DNA of 64,000 nt. Source: Octopus sinensis. Taxonomy: Eukaryota. The position numbers were made by a program, and so were the translations under genes. The notes under the pieces are model-generated. The model was not told the DNA's origin. It ran no database searches and was given only the letters and a program-made list of their open reading frames with translations. Location of the stretch: the NCBI RefSeq assembly GCF_006345805.1, contig NC_043000.1:96410001-96474000 (forward strand), read 5' to 3'. Below, one piece after another: positions 7,288 to 47,780 of the stretch. Numbering within the stretch: the first letter of the stretch is position 1; every line of letters begins with the position of its first letter.

Positions 7288-8301
7288 CATCATCATCACC
7301 ATCATTATCATTTCCAGTATTCTACAAGAATGATTATAATTATGAACAAGTAAAATAATAAATTATTATTTTCCTTCTATATCATACTATATATAATTTT
7401 CTCTTCCACTACCGTAATCCACTGTTTCCTTTTTAATATCTTACTAAATCTACCTCAGCCCTCCTATAGTATAATGTTTTATTAATTTTATTACTTATTG
7501 TCTTCCATATATCAATATTTTGATAGTTGATTCTCAGCATTTGTACATATGTATTGTGTTGAAGAATGAAAGAAGCTTTTTTTGTACCTCTATTAATTCA
7601 TAAATTAATTTATACATTATATTATACACATTAATACAGACAAATAAAATAATTTATTATTTGTTATACACAAAAATTAATTGTCTTCTTGTGATAAAGA
7701 TTGTGAAATGATCATCGTTATATGGATGTGAGTATATGTATATTTCTTCCAATGTTCACTATCTTTCCCCTCGTTCTGGTCTAACGACCCTCCATGTTTG
7801 TTTTCATTTGGTTACCTTGCATGTCTCCACTGTCCTGTTTTTGTTCCCAACTTTGGCCCTCCATAAAATCCAAAATTTATTTTGGAAGTTATGGGAGCAA
7901 CTGTCTTTGAAGACTCATATTGTCGTTGAATGCATAAAATGAGGAGTAGATAGACAGCTGACAACTGATGAAGGTCGTTCTTTGTGTTACTTGTCCTGCT
8001 TTTAGTTTCTTTTCTCGTAACTTGCTTGTTTGCATATTTCATGTTATTTACAGTTGGTGATGTGTTGTACCTGTATATGCATATATATATATATATATAT
8101 ATATAATTACATTATATAAAAGGCTTAGTAAAATAAATTACTTTGCCACATACTGAACTCATTAGAAATAGCAGCTAAAAAAATTTTTTTAAAACTATTT
8201 CTAATACTTAAAGAAAATCTCTCTCATATAGTGTTTGCTCAAGTCAACTCACGAAAGTATGGGGGTAAAAACATTAAAAAATCACAAATGCAAGGTTATT
8301 T

Positions 8302-8351
8302 GAGAACGTACGTTTCTAGATTAGTCAAATCGACATTTCTTTCGTCAGCTC
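8302..8351 (-). ncRNA. Type I hammerhead ribozyme motif, copy 1
   Basis: Minus strand GAG-CUGACGA-A-AGA-AAU-GUC-GAUUU-GAC-UAA-UCU-A-GAAA-C-GUAC-G-UU-CUC: CUGANGA and GAAA cores, stem I GAG/CUC, minimal palindromic stem III (ACGUACGU), GUU cleavage triplet. Activity not shown. Confidence 0.75.
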
Positions 8352-8859
8352 AGAACTCCTTGATTCGGATTTGGGAACACTGAAAGTGGGAGCATACCCT
8401 TTTGGCTTCTTCTTCTCACTTCTGAAGATCTGCTCGAACTATCAGTGCTAGCAATTCAAAATTGCAAGCGAAGAATTCTGCTCTCCCCTTTCCACCAGCG
8501 TGGGTTAAAATTGGTAAACACTATGTTTTATCGGTAAAAACCGAAGCATTAAATAGAGAGAAATAAATTATAGTTTCAACAATTGAGGGTAAAACTAATT
8601 AATTATTAATCAATTTCACCAAGTATTCAGTATGTAAAGGGACCATTTAAGGCGAATTCAAATTATTACATTATATAAAAGGGCTTAGTAAAATAAATTA
8701 CTTTGCCACATACTGAACTCATTAGAAATAGCAGCTAAAAAAATTTTTTTAAAACTATTCTAATACTTAAAGAAAATCTCTCTCTATAGTGTTTGCTCAA
8801 GTCAACTCACGAAAGTATGGGGGTAAAAACATTAAAAAATCACAATGCAAAGGTTATTT

Positions 8860-8909
8860 GAGAACGTACGCTTCTAGATTAGTCAAATCGACATTTCTTT
8901 CGTCAGCTC
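8860..8909 (-). ncRNA. Hammerhead motif, copy 2, core variant (GAAG for GAAA)
   Basis: Same as copy 1 but the plus strand reads CGCTTC instead of CGTTTC at 8869-8874. Confidence 0.55.
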
Positions 8910-9620
8910 AGAACTCCTTGATTCGGATTTGGGAACACTGAAAGTGGGAGCATACCCTTTTGGCTTCTTCTCACTTCTGAAGATCTGCTCGAACTATCAG
9001 TGCTAGCAAATTCAAAATATGCAAGCGAAGAATTTCTGCTCTCCCCTTTCCACCAGCGTGGGTTAAAATTGGTAAACACTATGTTTTATCGGTAAAAACC
9101 GAAGCATTAAATAGAGAGAAATAAATTATAATTTCAACAATTGAGGGTAAAATTAATTAATTATTAATCAATTTCACCAAGTATTCAGTATGTAAAGGGA
9201 CCATTTAAGGCGAATTCAAATTATTACATTATATAAAAGGGCTTAGTAAAATAAATTACTTTGCCACATACTGTTATTTTTACTAAGCCCTTTTATATAA
9301 TGTAATAATTTGAATTCGCCTTAAATGGTCCCTTTACATACTGAATACTTGATGAAATTGATTAATAATTAATTAATTTTACCCTCAATTGTTGAAATTA
9401 TAATTTATTTCTCTCTATTTAATGCTTCGGTTTTTACCGATAAAACATAGTGTTTACCAATTTTAACCCACGCTGGTGGAAAGGGGGAGAGCAGAAATTC
9501 TTCGCTTGCATATTTTGAATTTGCTAGCACTGATAGTTCGAGCAGATCTTCAGAAGTGAGAAGAAGCCAAACGGGTATGCTCCCACTTTCAGTGTTCCCA
9601 AATCCGAATCAAGGAGTTCT

Positions 9621-9670
9621 GAGCTGACGAAAGAAATGTCGATTTGACTAATCTAGAAACGTACGTTCTC
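9621..9670 (+). ncRNA. Type I hammerhead ribozyme motif, copy 3 (inverted arm)
   Basis: GAGCTGACGAAAGAAATGTCGATTTGACTAATCTAGAAACGTACGTTCTC read directly on the plus strand; cores intact. Confidence 0.75.
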
Positions 9671-10010
9671 AAATAACCTTTGCATTTGTGATTTTTTAAT
9701 GTTTTTACCCCCATACTTTCGTGAGTTGACTTGAGCAAACACTATATGAGAGAGATTTTCTTTAAGTATTAGAATAGTTAAAAAAAAATTTTTTTAGCTG
9801 CTATTTCTAATGAGTTCAGTATGTGGCAAAGTAATTTATTTTACTAAGCCTTTAATATGTAATAATTTGAATTCGCCTTAAATGGTCCCTCTCTACATAC
9901 TGAATACTTGGTGAAATTGATTAATAATTAATTAATTTTACCCTCAATTGTTGAAATTATATATATATATATATATAATATATATGCCTATATATTATTT
10001 ATATTATATG

Positions 10011-16049: not shown

Positions 16050-16606
16050 CTGTAATTAATGATAATAAAAAAAAACTTGAACATTGTTATGAAACTATAA
16101 TATTAAGTAAATGAATTAAAATCTTATTGTCTTTTTCCCTATTTGAAATCAATTTGCCAATTATACTTCATTATGGTTAAAGGATTGTCATGTCATATAC
16201 ATAATTGTCCATTCTTATGATTGTTATTTTACATATGTTTTTCTATTCATTATAAGTTTGCTTCCCAGCCACATGGTTCAGAGTTTAGGTTCAATCCCAC
16301 TGTGTGGCACCTTAGGTGAATATCTTCAGCTATGGCCTTGGGCTGATTATGAGTGGATTTGGAAGACATAAGCTGAATGAAGTCCTTTGTATATATATAT
16401 ATATGTCATCATCATCATCATTTAACGTCTGTTGTCCATGCTGGCATGGGTTGGATAGTTTGACCAGGGCTGGCACACTAGAAGGCTGCACCAGTTAAAT
16501 ACATGCCCAACCATAGAGTGACTAATGGTTTTGCATCCATAATCCTTAAAGTGCTTAGCTTTATAGACAGACTTCTTTTTTGGATATATGATCCACTGAT
16601 GATATA

Positions 16607-16659
<53 letters not shown>

Positions 16660-16667
16660 TATATATA

Positions 16668-17382
16668 AAGTATTAATTTATAAAAATATGGTAAAGTAAA
16701 AGAATTCACTTTACCACACACCGAACTTTTCAGAAATAGCAGCCAAAAATTTGGCTATTTCTTCAACTGCAAATAAAAGTCTCCAGACAATGCATACTCA
16801 GAAAAATAACTCACATAGGTATAAGGGAAAAACAATGAAAGATCACATCCATATACGATACCCGAGGACAGTCTGTTTCTGGATTTGTGGGTAAAACGCC
16901 ACTTTTCCTTCATCAGCTCAGAGATTTCTTCTGATTTAGATTTGAAAATACTAAGAATCAAACATACCCGTCCGATATCTGTAACATCGGACAAACCATG
17001 CCAGACACCCAGTACTAGCGAATCCAAAAATACAAATGAGATCTATTATTCTCCCTGTCCGCCCCGTGAGTCATAGAGCATTCCATTTCTACAGAGGTAA
17101 AACTGCAGTTCAAATTCTTGAGAGAAAGCATTATATTGTTATCAAAAAGGGGGTCGAATTAATTAATTATTAATAAATTCGACCAAGCAGTATTCGGTAT
17201 GTAAAGACCATTTACGGTATATTTGAAGTATTAATTTATAAAAATATGGTAAGTAAAGAATTCACTTACCACACACCGAACTTTTCAGAAATAGCAGCCA
17301 AAAATTTGGCTATTCCTTCAACTGCAAATAAAAGTCTCCAGACAATGCATACTTTTTTTGATAACAATATAATGTTTTTTGA

Positions 17383-17386
<4 letters not shown>
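16668..17386. mobile_element. Second, diverged hammerhead-bearing ~555-bp repeat (1.2 tandem units plus short inverted tail) in a (TA)n tract
   Basis: CAGAAATAGC at 16731 and 17286 (period 555); 17354-17374 is the reverse complement of 17129-17148; shares AGAAATAGCAGC, AATTAATTATTAAT, GTATGTAAAG and GACCATTTA with the 8103-9961 element. Confidence 0.8.
16864..16919 (-). ncRNA. Type I hammerhead ribozyme motif (second family)
   Basis: Minus strand GAG-CUGAUGA-A-GGA-AAA-GUGG-CGUUUUAC-CCAC-AAA-UCC-A-GAAA-C-AGACU-G-UC-CUC; canonical cores, GUC triplet, stem I extendable to UCUGAG/CUCGGG. Confidence 0.8.
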
Positions 17387-17435
<49 letters not shown>

Positions 17436-32456: not shown

Positions 32457-34588
32457 ATCTTTTCTGATTTTAATTATTCAAATTCTTCCTTTGAGGAAGG
32501 AGCTGGTTTCTGATAAAGATACAAAGCTCCATCGCTGGAATGTAGATGAAAACAATGTCACATTTTGAATTTGAGAAAAGTCTTTCAAATTTTTACCGTT
32601 TCATTTACAGGTTATATTTGTAGAGTGCAAGTTAGTCGGTTGATTTCATTTTCTGAAAACGCTAGCTTATCCAGATTGTCCTTTTGACATTTATTCACGA
32701 AACCAAGTGCACATTATTATTGGTATAAATGTGAATTTACAATTTGGATATAGAAGCTGGAAGTTTCGAAAACGTCGTCCATAGTTATCCTCTTTCTCTT
32801 CCATTTTCAGAGATATTCACATCAGCTGGGCAGTTGACCGCTGTGACGGTACATACTTTTTCTTGTCTGTCCCAAACAACACTATCCAGTCTGTTATGTT
32901 TACATTTGACATGTTTTGATGGGATGTTCCACCAGTATTCCTTGTGTTGATATTTGTGTATGTATTCAATAAGAGGGTTATTCTCTATATTTATTCCAGG
33001 ACAGTCTTTTTTTCTGAATTGCATTGTACGTGGTCTGATCAATAAGTATCCGGACTGTTGTTATAGTAACGAAGCTAAAGCACAGAGAATAAAGCTGCTT
33101 GGCACAGATTGACCTTGAACTCTGCTGTGCATGCGCACTAAGTTCTAGCGTTCTAGCTTACTTCTACTGTTTACAGCAGTGCTTAGAAGGAAGGTGTGTA
33201 GCGTGTGATCGTCGCATTGACCATGACAGAGAAAGCTGAGCAGAGAATCTGCATCAAATGTTGCCAAAAGCTTGGCGATACCTGCTCAGAGGCCTACGCA
33301 AAGTATTTAAAAGGTTTTCATCGTTTTCGACACAATTAAGGTAATTTTGTTCCACTGAAACCCAAGTGTCTTTTTGGTCAGCTGAAAGCAGTTTTGGCAC
33401 AAACTTAGTAGACATGCGTCCCTTACCCAAATCTTCAGCTATGATGGACTGAACTGAACCGTAACTAATCTGCACATCCTCTGATAACTCACGGATGGCG
33501 ATTCGACGATTTCCCCTTACAGCTGCACGCACATCTGTGATGTTTTTCTCAGTTCTGCTGATTGCGGGACCCCAGAACGTTCGTCAATATCGACATTTTT
33601 CGGCCATCTTGGAAAACGTCTGAACCACTCGTACATTCCTCATACACTCCTCTCCATACAATTTCTGTCACGGTCATGGTCAATGCGACGATCACACGCT
33701 ACACACCTTCCTTCCGATCACAGCTGTAAACAGCGGAAGTGAGCTAGGACGTTAAAACTTAGTGCGCATGCACAGCAGAATTTGAGGTCAATCTGTGCCA
33801 AGCAGATTCACTCTGCGTTCTTTAGCTTCGTTACTATGGCAACAGCCCGGATACTTATTGATCAGACCTCGTATACTGTTTTTGCGATAACATTGTGTCC
33901 GTAGGGAGGTAGTACCTTGACATTTTGGGGCAGCTGCTTATCACATGTATGATGCCATCTTCAGAAATATAACATAATCTACGTTTTCGGTTGCATGTTG
34001 GAGCTCCAAGGGACTCACTGTTTCATTTGTTTATTTGGTATTTCTCTTGTTCTTGGATTGCAAACGAGTCCAAAAGAGGCTGCACTTCACGTCGATATTA
34101 CTGCTTTCTTCAAGTCTTCGGGAAACATACGTATGCATAGTGTTTTTGGTATACTGTGCATTTTACATGCAGGTCTTCGAGATACGGTGGTCCAGTTGTT
34201 TTGGAGTTGTATGGGAGGTCATGAGGAAGAGAGTGCTTCCTGCGGAGCTCGCTGCCATAGGTTATTATTCGCATCACTTATCAGCACCAAGTTAATGTTA
34301 TTGTGTTTGCTGTTGTTGTTTAGTAAGTGCTGTCTGAAAGAGACTATACGACATTCGAAGGCGGTTTGCACCACTCTCAAGCCTCTGTCTGTGGAAATTA
34401 TCAGTTGAAGTGTATATCTTGCGGGTTTTAACATTTATGTAATGGATTTCCTCTACGGACCAGAGAAGTACCCCAATGTGGGCACTGGTACTGCAAATGC
34501 ATTGTGATATTGTTTTGCTGTAAAAGGAGAGTTCCGATTACCATATTTTTCTAAATCTTTCGTAATATTCTCGGGTTTCTCTAACTTC
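32457..34588 (-). mobile_element. R4/Dong-type retrotransposon, truncated (copy 2), split by a mariner insertion
   Basis: HNAFAVPV, GLRVVQTAFECRIVSFRQHLL, HVISSCPKMS zinc-knuckle remnant, EYWWNIP...CKHNRLDSVVWDRQEKVCTVTAVNCPADVNI restriction-like endonuclease region. Confidence 0.8.
33029..33871. mobile_element. Mariner-derived element built from two 5' ends in inverted orientation
   Basis: TA|CGTGGTCTGATCAATAAGTATCCGG ... CCGGATACTTATTGATCAGACCTCG|TA; arms match ~200 bp up to the ATG; plus MTEKAEQRICIKCCQKLG, minus RRIAIRELSEDVQISYGSVQSII...KFVPKLL. Confidence 0.85.
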
Positions 34589-39730: not shown

Positions 39731-40456
39731 GATCCCTAGACAGAACCAAATAGGCATATTTAAGGAATATAACCTGGAAACTGTCGTCAGTACCAAATTA
39801 ACTTACCAGATATTACCTTTGACCTGACTATAGGGAACAAGCATCCCTTCAGACAACTAAACAATATTGCAAAAAATTTAGCCCATGAAATGGCTGAGTA
39901 AATATCTTAACTATCCTCTGATAGGATGATTTTCCACCAGGCTATCCTCTATTACAATCTAAAAACTACGAAGAAGCAACTTTAATAAGAAAGTAATTTA
40001 TAAGATTACTTATCTAAGATATGCATTTCGAACGACCTATGTCACTTACTAAAAATTATGCACCCACTTTTGCATTATTTTCGGTACAACCTTCGTATGT
40101 TGTACCGAAAATAATGCAAAAGTGGGTGCATAATTTTTAGTAAGTGACATAGGTCGTTCGAAATGCATATCTTAGATAAGTAATCTTATAAATTACTTTC
40201 TTATTAAAGTTGCTTCTTCGTAGTTTAGATTGTAATAGAGGATAGCCTGGTGGAAAATCATACTATCAGAGGATAGTTAAGATATTTACTCAGCTATTTC
40301 ATTGGGTAAATTTTTTGCAATATTGTTTAGTTGTCTGAAGGGATGCTTGTTCCCTATAGTCAGGTCAAAGGTAATATCTGGTAAGTTAATTTGGTACTGA
40401 CGACAGTTTCCAGGTTATATTCCTTAAATATGCTTATTTGGTTCTTTCTAGGGATC
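39731..40456. mobile_element. Near-perfect 726-bp palindrome made from a Penelope-like RT C-terminal fragment
   Basis: Arms 39731-40090 and 40099-40456 around an 8-nt spacer; left arm reads (frameshifted) IFKEYNLETVVSTKL / DITFDLTIGNKHPFRQLNN / LSSDRMIFHQAILYYN, resembling PLE RT/thumb sequence. Confidence 0.75.
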
Positions 40457-45553: not shown

Positions 45554-46479
45554 CTTACATACATAGACACACACTCAGTGTGTGTATTTATGTGTATACG
45601 TAGAATCAACTTGTTCTTGATAGAAAGTCCTTGTATGAAAACACTCAGACGCGAAAAGACAAGAGAACAAAAAGGTTATTTTTTTCTATTATTTGCTTAG
45701 TCCTTTATTGTTAGAAACGTAACGTATTGGTCAGTCGTTGTTTCAAATGCTTTTAAAGAAAAGTAGAAAACTGAAAGATAGTGACGTCCACAACTTCATA
45801 TCTTGTTATTCGAGTGAAGCACAAGAAAAAGCATAAAATGACATACATCTACACATACACATACACATATAAATATGCACATATAGAATGCACATGTTGT
45901 ACACGTACACATACATACTTATGTAGTGAAAGGTGTGAAAATGTATTAATGATATTATAATATATCATTTATAGATATATCCAAATATATACTATTTTGA
46001 ATATATTTTCTACAAACCAACAAAAATGTCTCTTCTTTGTTGGTTAGATAACTAAATAATAATTACGTTGCACATGAAGGCGGTGTGCTGTCAGAATTGT
46101 TAGCACACCGGGCAAAATACTTTGCAGCATTTCGTTCGTCTTAACGTTCTGAGTTCAAATTCCACCGATGCTAACTTTGTATTTCATTCTTTCGGGGTCG
46201 ATAAAATAAGTACTAGTTGATCACTGGGGTCTATGTAATCGACGAGCTTCCTGCACTGAAATTTTGTGCCAGAATTTGAAACCAGTAACTACATAGCACA
46301 TGGGATGTGAGTACATACTTGAAATATCTACTTGAATTTGTAACTATTGTACATATACGTCTGTCTTGTTATATTAAGTGGACTATTTCTCTTAAAATGA
46401 AATGATTAGCAATATTTAAAGTCTAAGTTTTGGTGTGTGACCGAGTAGTTGCAGTACAGAACGGATGTAAAAGTCTCAT

Positions 46480-47780
46480 TTTCTTTAATTATCAAAATGC
46501 CCAGAAATAGATGTTTCCTTTCATTCATTCGAAATTGGACCACTTCCTGAATTTTATTGATGTATAACAGTCATAACAGTCATCCAGGAATCTTTTTCAG
46601 TTTCCTTTTCAGTAGGACTAGAAAAGCTTATCAAAAGTAATTGCATATCAAGCATAGATCTTTTTCTTCTGGGAATCTCATGAACAGTGTTGCAAACATG
46701 GGTGCAACTTTCAGACCCATTCCATCCTCTTACCAAAAAAGAAGTATTTTTCTAACACCAATTGTAATCTTTCAAGTATGAATTGTTTTTAAAAACCTCT
46801 CCTGAATTATTCTTAGGTATTTGTCTATCTAGAATCCCACAACTTCCAATCCTAATCCATAGGGGATATTTGTGCAGAGGCTGGTCAGAAGGAAACTAAC
46901 CAGTATCGTCTCTATTTTCATAGTTTCTGGAACGTTGTCCAAGAAATCTCTGTTCTCTCGGATGAAGTTAGGAATCAGTTTCCCTAGTAGTTTTAATCTG
47001 ATGTCCAGCATATTGCTTTAATCATTGGTTTGATTTTGGTCATACAAGAACTGGGCCTAATTTTAAGTCAGACAATTTAGGAATTTTTATCTATAATGTA
47101 TGGAGGTCCTTTAAGCTGCTATGGATTTCCTCAGATTTATGAATTTTCGGTAGTCCATAAATTGTTGCTTTGTTTTACCTCAAAATTAGTTAAGTGAACC
47201 AATTCATTTGCCGTTAAATTGTTTTTCAATGTGTCCATTAATTTATCAGTTTTGTTCATTGTTTATTTGCATTAGATTCGAATTTGTTTTGTAGAAATGT
47301 TGTTCCTTTAGTTGTTTTAAGAGATTTCCTGTAATGGGTCTTGTCCATATTGTAACGACCTCACCTTTGTTAACCTTCTCTATAACCTTTAATGGTTATA
47401 GAGAAAGCTTTTTGTAGACAATGGATTTTGCTGTTTTGTAATGTTTTATTTTATACAATTTGAATTTGATGATTTTTCAGACATGTTATATATTCTTATA
47501 TGTGGTTATTCCTGTTCATCGGATGTTTAAATTTCATTTTTTTTTACAAGTGATGGATCTATGCAGTCCTTTCTTTTGGGAAAATTCCCATAGATAAGGT
47601 TTTCTACAGGCTTCCACACGATCTTTTGTGTCAGATTTTAGAGTTTGTGTGAATTTAAAATCCATTTGCTAAAAGTTTATTTCGTTGTGATAAATTAATT
47701 CTTTAGAATCAGCTGCTCTAGCTTTGAATCACTAATGTTTTCTTTCATTTTTGCATGGGACTATTGTTTCTTAAAATGAA
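46480..47780 (-). mobile_element. Decayed Penelope-like reverse transcriptase fragment
   Basis: YGLPKIHK (~47135-47160) and LDIRLKLLGKLIPNFIRENRDFLDNVPETMKIETILVSFLLTSLCTNIPYGLGLE, hallmark PLE RT motifs (LPKIHK; LVSFDVTSLYTNIP). Confidence 0.85.

What the first reader, a model, noticed from the sequence alone, without database searches (positions are those of the whole stretch)
8302..8351. Atypical hammerhead architecture supported by covariation between two families
Seen: this motif and 16864-16919 differ in sequence yet keep the fold: stem I GAG/CUC; CUGA(C/U)GA; an A opposite an A at the first stem II position; helix AGA/UCU vs GGA/UCC; 3x3 A-rich internal loop; inner helix GUC/GAC vs GUGG/CCAC; GAAA; tiny quasi-palindromic stem III (ACGUACGU vs ACAGACUGU); triplet GUU vs GUC. 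Established: canonical hammerheads have a Watson-Crick pair (usually G-C) at 10.1-11.1, and palindromic short stem III forms cleave as dimers. Inference: a selected structural variant with A10.1-A11.1 and an extended two-helix stem II.
Basis: partly seen in the sequence, partly recalled or inferred. Interest (0 to 1): 0.8.

Follow-up and report, generated by a model that had tools for sequence, protein, structure and literature searches.

The report
Hammerhead ribozyme with unpaired stem base
A mobile repeat present in thousands of copies in this animal genome carries a predicted self-cutting RNA (a hammerhead ribozyme) in which a normally fixed base pair beside the active site is mismatched, A opposite A here but more often U opposite U in sister copies, so the pair is likely dispensable rather than A·A being specially selected.

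Summary
Both motifs are type I hammerheads inside related ~560-nt repeats (65% identical, so one superfamily). These repeats behave like non-autonomous Penelope-like elements (retrozymes): tandem and inverted copies, fixed 3' ends, (TA)n targets.

The two-helix stem II is real: 7 of 7 pairs show two-sided changes in 25 hand-picked representatives. It reads as a canonical 4-position stem II whose loop 2 is opened by an extra hairpin. The bases of the known U1.7/loop-2-A contact are kept.

A·A is fixed in the two window subfamilies and ancestral on the tree, but only 1,362 of 4,484 genomic matches have it. U·U dominates the listed remainder; A-U, U-A and G·U also spread; G-C was found in 4 copies. 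Both positions change no less often than flanking DNA, so A·A looks tolerated, not selected.

Precedents exist for U·U, for an internal loop 2 and probably for A·A. I found no report of the combination, and Rfam misses it. Cleavage, expression and the partner element are not shown. Verdict: new variant of a known kind.

The parts
8302..8351 (-). Type I hammerhead, subfamily A, intact: core 8348-8342, 10.1 = 8341, proximal helix 8340-8338/8320-8318, internal loop 8337-8335/8323-8321, inner hairpin 8334-8324, 11.1 = 8317, GAAA 8316-8313, predicted cut between 8305 and 8304
   Evidence: cut site inferred from the hammerhead consensus
8298..8298 (-). U1.7, predicted tertiary partner of the last loop-2 A (8321)
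   Evidence: U in 28 of 30 subfamily representatives and 20 of 22 hand-picked families; the contact itself is from the literature
8860..8909 (-). Second tandem copy of hammerhead A with A15.1 changed to G (8871), probably impaired
9621..9670 (+). Third copy of hammerhead A, intact, in the inverted arm of the insertion
8103..9273 (-). Head-to-tail arm of the subfamily A insertion, about 2.1 units of ~559 nt; 3' end about 199 nt after the cut, at (TA)n
9278..9961 (+). Inverted arm of the subfamily A insertion; 3' end about 294 nt after the cut, at (TA)n
16864..16919 (-). Type I hammerhead, subfamily B, intact: core 16916-16910, 10.1 = 16909, 11.1 = 16880, GAAA 16879-16876, predicted cut between 16867 and 16866, U1.7 = 16860
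16660..17386 (-). Subfamily B insertion: about 1.2 units of ~562 nt plus a short inverted end piece (about 17355-17386)
8081..8105 (.). (TA)n target run at the left end of insertion A
9958..10009 (.). (TA)n target run at the right end of insertion A
16602..16667 (.). (TA)n target run at the left end of insertion B
17387..17433 (.). (TA)n target run at the right end of insertion B

Best explanation
This is a type I hammerhead fold carried by a ~560-nt multicopy repeat that is likely a non-autonomous Penelope-like element (retrozyme), and it is predicted to self-cleave tandem transcripts into unit-length RNA despite a mismatched 10.1/11.1 position that is likely tolerated rather than selected as A.A. 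Shown: the fold, its covariation, the copy numbers, the element's ends and targets, and the variation at 10.1/11.1. Inferred: (1) stem II is the canonical four positions (mismatch plus 3 bp), and the 3x3 loop is loop 2 with a hairpin inserted between its third and fourth base; (2) U1.7 docks on the last loop-2 A and compensates for the weak first pair; (3) two neighbouring copies form stem III as a dimer; (4) unit RNAs, possibly circular, are reverse-transcribed from an internal start about 293 nt after the cut and inserted at (TA)n by a Neptune-like RT/GIY-YIG protein acting in trans.
For: Stem II: 94% of cells paired, 7 of 7 pairs with two-sided changes, 0 of 500 shuffles reach the covariation score, slid controls 20-46% paired. 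The 10.1/11.1 column is unpaired in 18 of 25 and the two loop columns nearest the proximal helix in 25 of 25. States at 10.1/11.1: A.A 1,362, A plus non-A 355, non-A 2,767; G-C in 4 copies of one array. Flank tree: A.A ancestral; U.U arose in two multicopy lineages, each beside an A-U or U-A subfamily. Geometry: families with the same first position plus 3 bp and a plain 6-nt loop (L203 A.A, L172 G.U, L205 U-A) fix the numbering. First and last loop-2 bases are A in 30 of 30, matching the R:A opposition reported as essential in CChMVd (PMC2632901). U1.7 is in 20 of 22 families while 1.1-1.6 are mixed. Stem III stays self-complementary in all 30 representatives (at least 8 paired positions) although its sequence and length vary; hairpin +2.4 versus dimer -9.8 kcal/mol for A, +2.1 versus -6.9 for B. 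Element: monomer spacing mostly 555-566 nt; 3' ends fall at about +195 and +293, beside (TA)n in 25 of 25 and 32 of 35 (A type) and 28 of 28 and 13 of 14 (B type). Long RT plus GIY-YIG ORFs (781 and 775 aa) exist in G000.
Against: No cleavage or expression data. 5' ends of insertions are not enriched at the predicted cut: 3 of 70 against 2.1 expected, and 1 of 53 against 1.6. No autonomous element shares the unit's sequence among 53 PLE-protein loci; the adjacency in L096 is separated by (TA)n. Core invariance across subfamilies is partly built into my search patterns. The alignment was hand-picked for the two-helix form and 16 of its 25 rows are related. U1.7 is C in one spreading subfamily. 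Only 1 of 9 predicted Xenopus retrozyme dimers cleaved in vitro (bioRxiv 10.64898/2026.07.22.740005), and minimal PLE hammerheads cleave poorly (PMC4209133).
Confidence: 0.6

Rival explanations
1. A10.1.A11.1 is a specifically selected non-canonical (sheared-type) pair that extends the purine stack beside A9.G12 or tunes the cleavage rate.
For: A.A is ancestral and kept along the deep branches separating subfamilies A and B. It is 20 of 30 representatives. It recurs in 3 of 18 families found incidentally, one of them (L014) with the same 3x3 loop and no flank similarity. A.A or U.U make up 27 of 30 representatives, and G-C is almost absent from the superfamily.
Against: Only 1,362 of 4,484 matches are A.A. 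The largest expansion is U.U, judged from the 100 listed rows. Each position changes 4 times against a flank mean of 1.77. Eight different states occur among 22 families, including G-C in 4.
Confidence: 0.15
2. The motif is a weak or non-cleaving hammerhead-shaped structure kept for another role, such as recognition by the Penelope protein, and the arrays come from read-through transcripts.
For: 5' ends are not enriched at the cut. Insertions run through the site in long arrays, e.g. the run at G000:C1:132.52 Mb. The canonical first pair is missing. The whole motif is not unusually stable. Low or absent activity is reported for many PLE and retrozyme hammerheads.
Against: All conserved core bases, an NUH triplet (U, C or A at position 17, never G among the matches; H is required by my pattern), a self-complementary stem III and the U1.7/loop-2-A pair are kept between subfamilies only 65% identical. 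An axolotl retrozyme hammerhead with U.U at this position cleaves (PMC7229834).
Confidence: 0.13
3. The numbering differs: the 5' A is the extra base between A9 and G10.1 known from PLE minimal hammerheads, the 3' A is a second insertion before G12, and the true 10.1-11.1 pair is the normal A-U or G-C that follows.
For: An unpaired base between 9 and 10.1 with a conserved G10.1-C11.1 is the published PLE consensus (PMC4209133). Subfamily B has G-C right after the A.A. One row of that paper's Fig. S3 shows AGAAA instead of GAAA.
Against: The two bases form G-C, G.U, A-U or U-A pairs in sister subfamilies and other families. Counting them as 10.1/11.1 gives the canonical 4-position stem II before a 6-base loop 2 and a 6-bp stem I before U1.7. 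The two readings describe the same secondary structure.
Confidence: 0.12

Closest known systems
Non-LTR retrozymes with type I hammerheads (Cervera and de la Pena 2020, PMC7229834; Li et al. 2026 preprint), especially axolotl HHR_Amex2
   Same: Non-coding tandem repeats of a few hundred bases with one type I hammerhead per unit and a short palindromic helix III. HHR_Amex2 has a U.U mismatch at the base of helix II and cleaves, better as a dimer.
   Different: The unit is ~560 nt. The first position is A.A ancestrally and varies between subfamilies. Loop 2 is internal and capped by a second helix. Circular RNA and cleavage are not shown here.
Penelope-like element pLTR hammerheads (Cervera and de la Pena 2014, PMC4209133; Craig et al. 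2021, PMC8557442)
   Same: Tandem plus inverted insertions, a tail at one end, (TA)n targets as in Neptune and Naiad, palindromic stem III. One listed PLE hammerhead, probably the bracovirus one by row order, seems to have A on both sides at the stem II base.
   Different: The published consensus is a 5' bulge plus G10.1-C11.1, a long plain helix II and a short helix I. Here helix I is about 6 bp with U1.7, and the tail is about 95 nt rather than 30-40. No ORF is attached.
CChMVd (-) hammerhead (Dufour et al., PMC2632901)
   Same: Stem II continues through an internal loop 2 into a capped hairpin. A 5' purine opposite a 3' A at the bottom of loop 2 is reported as essential.
   Different: A viroid ribozyme with a hairpin loop 1 and an asymmetric 2:6 internal loop, not a symmetric 3x3 loop in a genomic retroelement.
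Natural U10.1.U11.1 hammerhead (Perreault et al. 2011, PMC3088659)
   Same: [quoted passage not shown] The paper says U.U is the best tolerated mispair.
   Different: Treated as a rare exception, and mispairs at 10.1-11.1 were a rejection criterion. Here mismatches are the rule across thousands of copies and include A.A.

Membership tests
Type I hammerhead ribozyme | Core CUGANGA, GAAA and NUH triplet around three stems, stem I open | tested here: met
   N7 and H17 vary while the other core bases do not (partly fixed by the pattern)
Type I hammerhead ribozyme | Watson-Crick pair (usually G-C) at 10.1-11.1 | tested here: not met
   A.A in the window; paired in 3 of 30 subfamily representatives; G-C in 4 genomic copies. 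Exceptions are in print.
Type I hammerhead ribozyme | Stem II supported by covariation | tested here: met
   with the caveat that rows were hand-picked and many are related
Type I hammerhead ribozyme | Bases for the loop 1/loop 2 tertiary contact (U1.7; R...A in loop 2) | tested here: met
   searches show the bases are conserved; the contact itself is inferred
Type I hammerhead ribozyme | Site-specific self-cleavage | not testable with these tools
   no assay; insertion 5' ends give no sign of it
Rfam hammerhead families | Match to an Rfam hammerhead model | tested here: not met
   no hammerhead family at E <= 10 in targeted scans of either motif; none among the 150 listed of 194 whole-window matches
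Non-LTR retrozyme | Non-coding tandem units with one type I hammerhead each, dispersed in many loci | tested here: met
   no PLE protein similarity was found in the units themselves
Non-LTR retrozyme | Accumulates as unit-length linear and circular RNA | tested here: inconclusive
   no run on record as RNA was listed; contigs cannot show ends or circles
Penelope-like element (non-autonomous) | Partial tandems, inverted 5'-truncated arm, tail at one end, microsatellite target | tested here: met
   against the description in PMC8557442
Penelope-like element (non-autonomous) | Sequence shared with the pLTR of an autonomous PLE | tested here: inconclusive
   none in 53 PLE-protein loci, but only 150 of 5,029 GIY-YIG candidates were scored
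Naiad PLE clade | Linked to an ORF with N-terminal GIY-YIG, or homologous to a Naiad 3' UTR | tested here: inconclusive
   three 11-base core motifs were absent from the paper's supplementary zip, which holds the Naiad consensus file (line wraps could hide a match); no alignment was made

The most novel reading that the evidence does not exclude
This genome holds a large, undetected class of fully active, tertiary-stabilised type I hammerheads in which the 10.1-11.1 pair is dispensable. Natural subfamilies step from A.A to U.U through A-U or U-A intermediates, and the mismatch plus 3x3 loop-2 plus hairpin module recurs in families with unrelated flanks. Rfam and mismatch-rejecting descriptors miss them, so animal hammerhead counts are underestimates, and some Penelope-like elements reported as having only a hammerhead core may carry working ribozymes of this type.
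Probability: 0.3. Interest if true: 0.65.

Novelty: new variant of a known kind. Interest (0 to 1): 0.42.

Why it matters
The 10.1-11.1 pair is described as the most conserved stem pair of the hammerhead after A15.1-U16.1, and it has been used to reject candidates (PMC3088659). Here about 4,500 genomic copies give a natural, phylogenetically ordered series at that position (A.A, A-U, U-A, U.U, G.U, rare G-C) in nearly the same background. That makes it directly testable whether the peripheral loop contact frees the core from this pair, and whether retroelements tune their cleavage rate. It also points to a blind spot in ribozyme searches. It does not define a new ribozyme class or a new element type.

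Tried and rejected
Rfam: no hammerhead match.

Other collections: a pattern for the A.A architecture gave 39 metagenome matches, of which 0 form a complete hammerhead, and 0 viral matches. These collections hold little animal DNA, so this says little about distribution.

Expression: no RNA holder listed. Four guessed-RNA contig sets cover the unit but may be DNA. Contigs from organisms D, E, C and B cover the motif region, and the table of differences listed no row at 8341 or 8317. None of this is used as evidence.

Cleavage footprint in insertion 5' ends: a first script gave a false peak from broken chains and crashed. The corrected one found no enrichment. In one search the 3' end classes at +314 (A type) and +528 (B type) are probably artefacts of the reference array.

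Autonomous partner: not found. The apparent links in L096, L154, L161 and L310 look like neighbouring or nested insertions; (TA)n runs separate them from the ORF in L096, L161 and L310, and L154 was not read.

Naiad link, suggested by the 'HHR_half_core' labels in File S1 of PMC8557442: not supported by a three-motif text search and otherwise untested.

Avoidance of G-C as a selected trait: not claimed, because few master lineages and mutational distance could explain it, and G-C occurs in 4 of 22 families.

L222 as a third U.U lineage: it is 1 of 47 matches, so it is not counted as a subfamily.

Earlier scan notes: nothing returned.

Full report
OBSERVATION. Both motifs are in the sequence as described, on the minus strand. 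Motif A has 10.1 at 8341 and 11.1 at 8317; motif B has them at 16909 and 16880. The isolated stems II fold as drawn (z -1.84 and -2.60), while the whole motifs are no more stable than shuffles and stem III is not formed in the monomer MFE. A covariance model built from 25 representatives finds four strong matches in the window: the two named, an intact copy at 9621-9670 (+), and a copy at 8860-8909 (-) with A15.1 changed to G; the next match has E 0.39. No Rfam hammerhead model matches.

CONTEXT. Each motif lies in a repeat unit of about 560 nt. Insertion A (8103-9961) is about two head-to-tail units plus an inverted arm; insertion B (16660-17386) is about 1.2 units plus a short inverted end; both are bounded by (TA)n. 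In G000 (2.72 Gb; probably a cephalopod, my untested guess) the DNA searches had 2,172 and 1,347 first-look candidates, of which 40 and 39 were scored, and returned many 92-99% identical tandem and inverted copies. Spacing between same-strand ribozymes is mostly 555-566 nt. 3' ends fall in two classes, about +195 and +293 from the predicted cut, nearly all beside (TA)n (25 of 25, 32 of 35; 28 of 28, 13 of 14). 5' ends are scattered and not enriched at the cut (3 of 70 against 2.1 expected; 1 of 53 against 1.6). This matches the description of Penelope-like insertions with partial tandems, inverted arm, tail and (TA)n preference (PMC8557442, section 6 and passages read), and internal initiation of reverse transcription (PMC11167929, part 1 of 4 read); the tail here is about 95 nt. 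G000 has long RT plus GIY-YIG ORFs, which I call Neptune-like from the CxxC linker and the (TA)n target (label from my own knowledge). None of 53 such loci shares the unit's sequence in continuity.

IS A.A SELECTED? In close copies of the two window subfamilies, found by BLAST and not by pattern, A.A is nearly fixed: about 43 of 44 and 42 of 43. Across the superfamily it is not. In one pattern frame, A.A has 1,362 matches (control 0), A with non-A 355 (control 1; listed rows almost all A-U), and non-A at 10.1 2,767 (control 1; the 100 listed rows are mostly U.U, with 10 G.U, 3 U-A and 1 U.C). A looser A.A pattern gave 1,526 against 27. G at 10.1 with non-U at 11.1 gives 8 matches, 4 of them G-C in one array. 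A tree of 30 representatives built from flanks only puts A.A at the root and on all deep branches (midpoint root; three rows under half filled; single-change copies of listed subfamilies left out; non-A subfamilies were sought on purpose). U.U arises next to an A-U subfamily and next to a U-A subfamily, and the first is a real multicopy lineage (42 of 47 matches). Parsimony gives 4 changes at each of 10.1 and 11.1, against a mean of 1.77 over 337 flank columns. Among 22 hand-picked families the states are A.A 6, G-C 4, A-U 3, U.U 3, G.U 2, U-A 2, U.G 1, C.A 1. I picked these, dropping six weak candidates and L091; four were fetched by pattern, and A.A is 3 of the 18 incidental ones. An autonomous element's own hammerhead (L173) has U.U. 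So the position is degenerate. A.A is a successful and old state, but nothing shows it is preferred.

IS THE TWO-HELIX STEM II REAL? Yes. On 25 hand-picked sequences (16 subfamilies plus 9 from other families), the 3-bp proximal and 4-bp inner helices are 94% paired, and all 7 pairs have two-sided changes. None of 500 shuffles reaches the score, and slid controls are 20-46% paired. The 10.1/11.1 column is unpaired in 18 of 25 and the loop columns in 25, 25 and 20 of 25. Relatedness and my selection inflate these numbers. Within the superfamily alone, the intermediates A-U, G.U, A.C and G-C are visible at 10.2/11.2, and the inner helix keeps pairing through 5-8 state changes per pair at two positions. 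Families with no flank similarity to A or B (L014, L053) repeat the layout, and more turned up, whose pattern demanded A.A.

WHAT THE ARCHITECTURE IS. Counting the mismatch, the proximal stem has four positions, and the 3+3 loop bases equal a six-base loop 2 opened by a hairpin. Families with the same first position, 3 bp and a plain 6-base loop exist in G000 (L203, L172, L205). The first and last loop bases are A in 30 of 30 representatives, and position 1.7 is U in 28 of 30 (one exception is a copy with a deletion, one a real U to C subfamily). It is U in 20 of 22 families, while 1.1-1.6 are mixed; the downstream region is U-rich, up to 14 of 22. These are the bases of the known U1.7/loop-2-A Hoogsteen contact (PMC11875169, passages, which also reports that this U is not essential in its own construct) and of the R:A opposition in CChMVd, whose minus-strand hammerhead already has an internal loop 2 capped by a hairpin (PMC2632901, abstract and sections 20, 21, 24). 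Stem III changes length from 8 to 10 bases but stays self-complementary, and pairs far better as a dimer than as a hairpin.

MECHANISM. Shown: fold, covariation, copy structure, ends, targets. Inferred: transcription through tandem units, dimer-assisted cleavage after GUU or GUC, support from the peripheral contact, unit-length and perhaps circular RNA, and copying by a PLE protein in trans into (TA)n. Against easy acceptance: there is no RNA evidence, no cut-site footprint and no partner, and only 1 of 9 Xenopus retrozyme dimers cleaved (bioRxiv 10.64898/2026.07.22.740005, parts 1-3 of 5 read).

WHAT IS KNOWN. A natural U10.1.U11.1 hammerhead is reported, and mispairs there were a rejection rule (PMC3088659, passages and section 8). 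Axolotl HHR_Amex2 has U.U at the base of helix II and cleaves (PMC7229834, passages and section 15; its supplement was too large to read and may list more species). PLE minimal hammerheads have one extra base before G10.1-C11.1 (PMC4209133, parts 1-2 of 4 and supplement parts 1-2 of 3). In its Fig. S3 one core cell reads AGAAA, which by row order in machine-read PDF text is the bracovirus PLE row and would be an A.A precedent; that assignment is uncertain. PMC9901934 (passages) gave no figure for this pair. PMC6765202 and PMC7936874 were read as passages only. Lunse et al. 2017, Hammann et al. 2012 and Tuschl and Eckstein 1993 could not be read, and any of them may bear on novelty. Searches for hammerhead with A10.1/A11.1 (15 of 47 listed), for 10.1, 11.1, mismatch and stem II, for internal loop, stem II and retrozyme, and for octopus or cephalopod with hammerhead or retrozyme showed no description of this family or of the combined architecture in the listings, within an open-access library.

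VERDICT. Real, abundant and structurally well supported; a new variant of a known kind. The claim that A.A itself is selected is not borne out: the more general result is that the 10.1-11.1 pair is degenerate across thousands of copies and many families. Interest 0.42.

Noticed in passing
window 46361-47168 (-): Broken fragment of a Penelope-like reverse transcriptase (tblastn E about 5e-19 to the 775-aa ORF), unrelated in position to the hammerhead repeats.
   Followed up: no
window 8122-8147 (-), also 8682-8707, 9240-9265, 9825-9850: A second hairpin near the unit's 3' end resembles stem II (3 bp, 3x3 loop, 4 bp) in subfamily A, but reads as a nearly continuous helix in B. It could be part of the protein-binding end.
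   Followed up: no
L146, L145, L158, L159, L161 (G000 GIY-YIG loci): Autonomous Neptune-like elements carry hammerheads with the U3-A8 core variant 3' of the ORF; their 10.1/11.1 is G-C or A.C.
   Followed up: partly
L169:2032-4374 (+), L172:2745-5069 (-): Long uninterrupted RT plus GIY-YIG ORFs; several 781-aa copies are listed, which suggests recently active Penelope-like families.
   Followed up: partly
L014:2942-3034 (-), L209-L213, L053:2168-2262 (+), L178:393-490 (+): Further (TA)n-associated repeat families with the same two-helix stem II; L014 and L053 have no flank similarity to the window units.
   Followed up: partly
G000:C3:126331132-126332857 (L295-L298): One four-copy array of the G.U subfamily has the canonical G-C pair at 10.1-11.1.
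   Followed up: partly
L091 (G000:C1:134287931-134287966, -): A core with A.A and a plain 7-bp stem II, but without a convincing stem I.
   Followed up: no
window 39731-40456 and 33022-33878: Two other long inverted-repeat elements; neither gave a strong match to the hammerhead model.
   Followed up: no
PMC8557442 File S1: Several Naiad elements, including two from cephalopods, are labelled HHR_core or HHR_half_core because they did not fit the stem descriptors. They are worth rescreening with a mismatch-tolerant model.
   Followed up: partly
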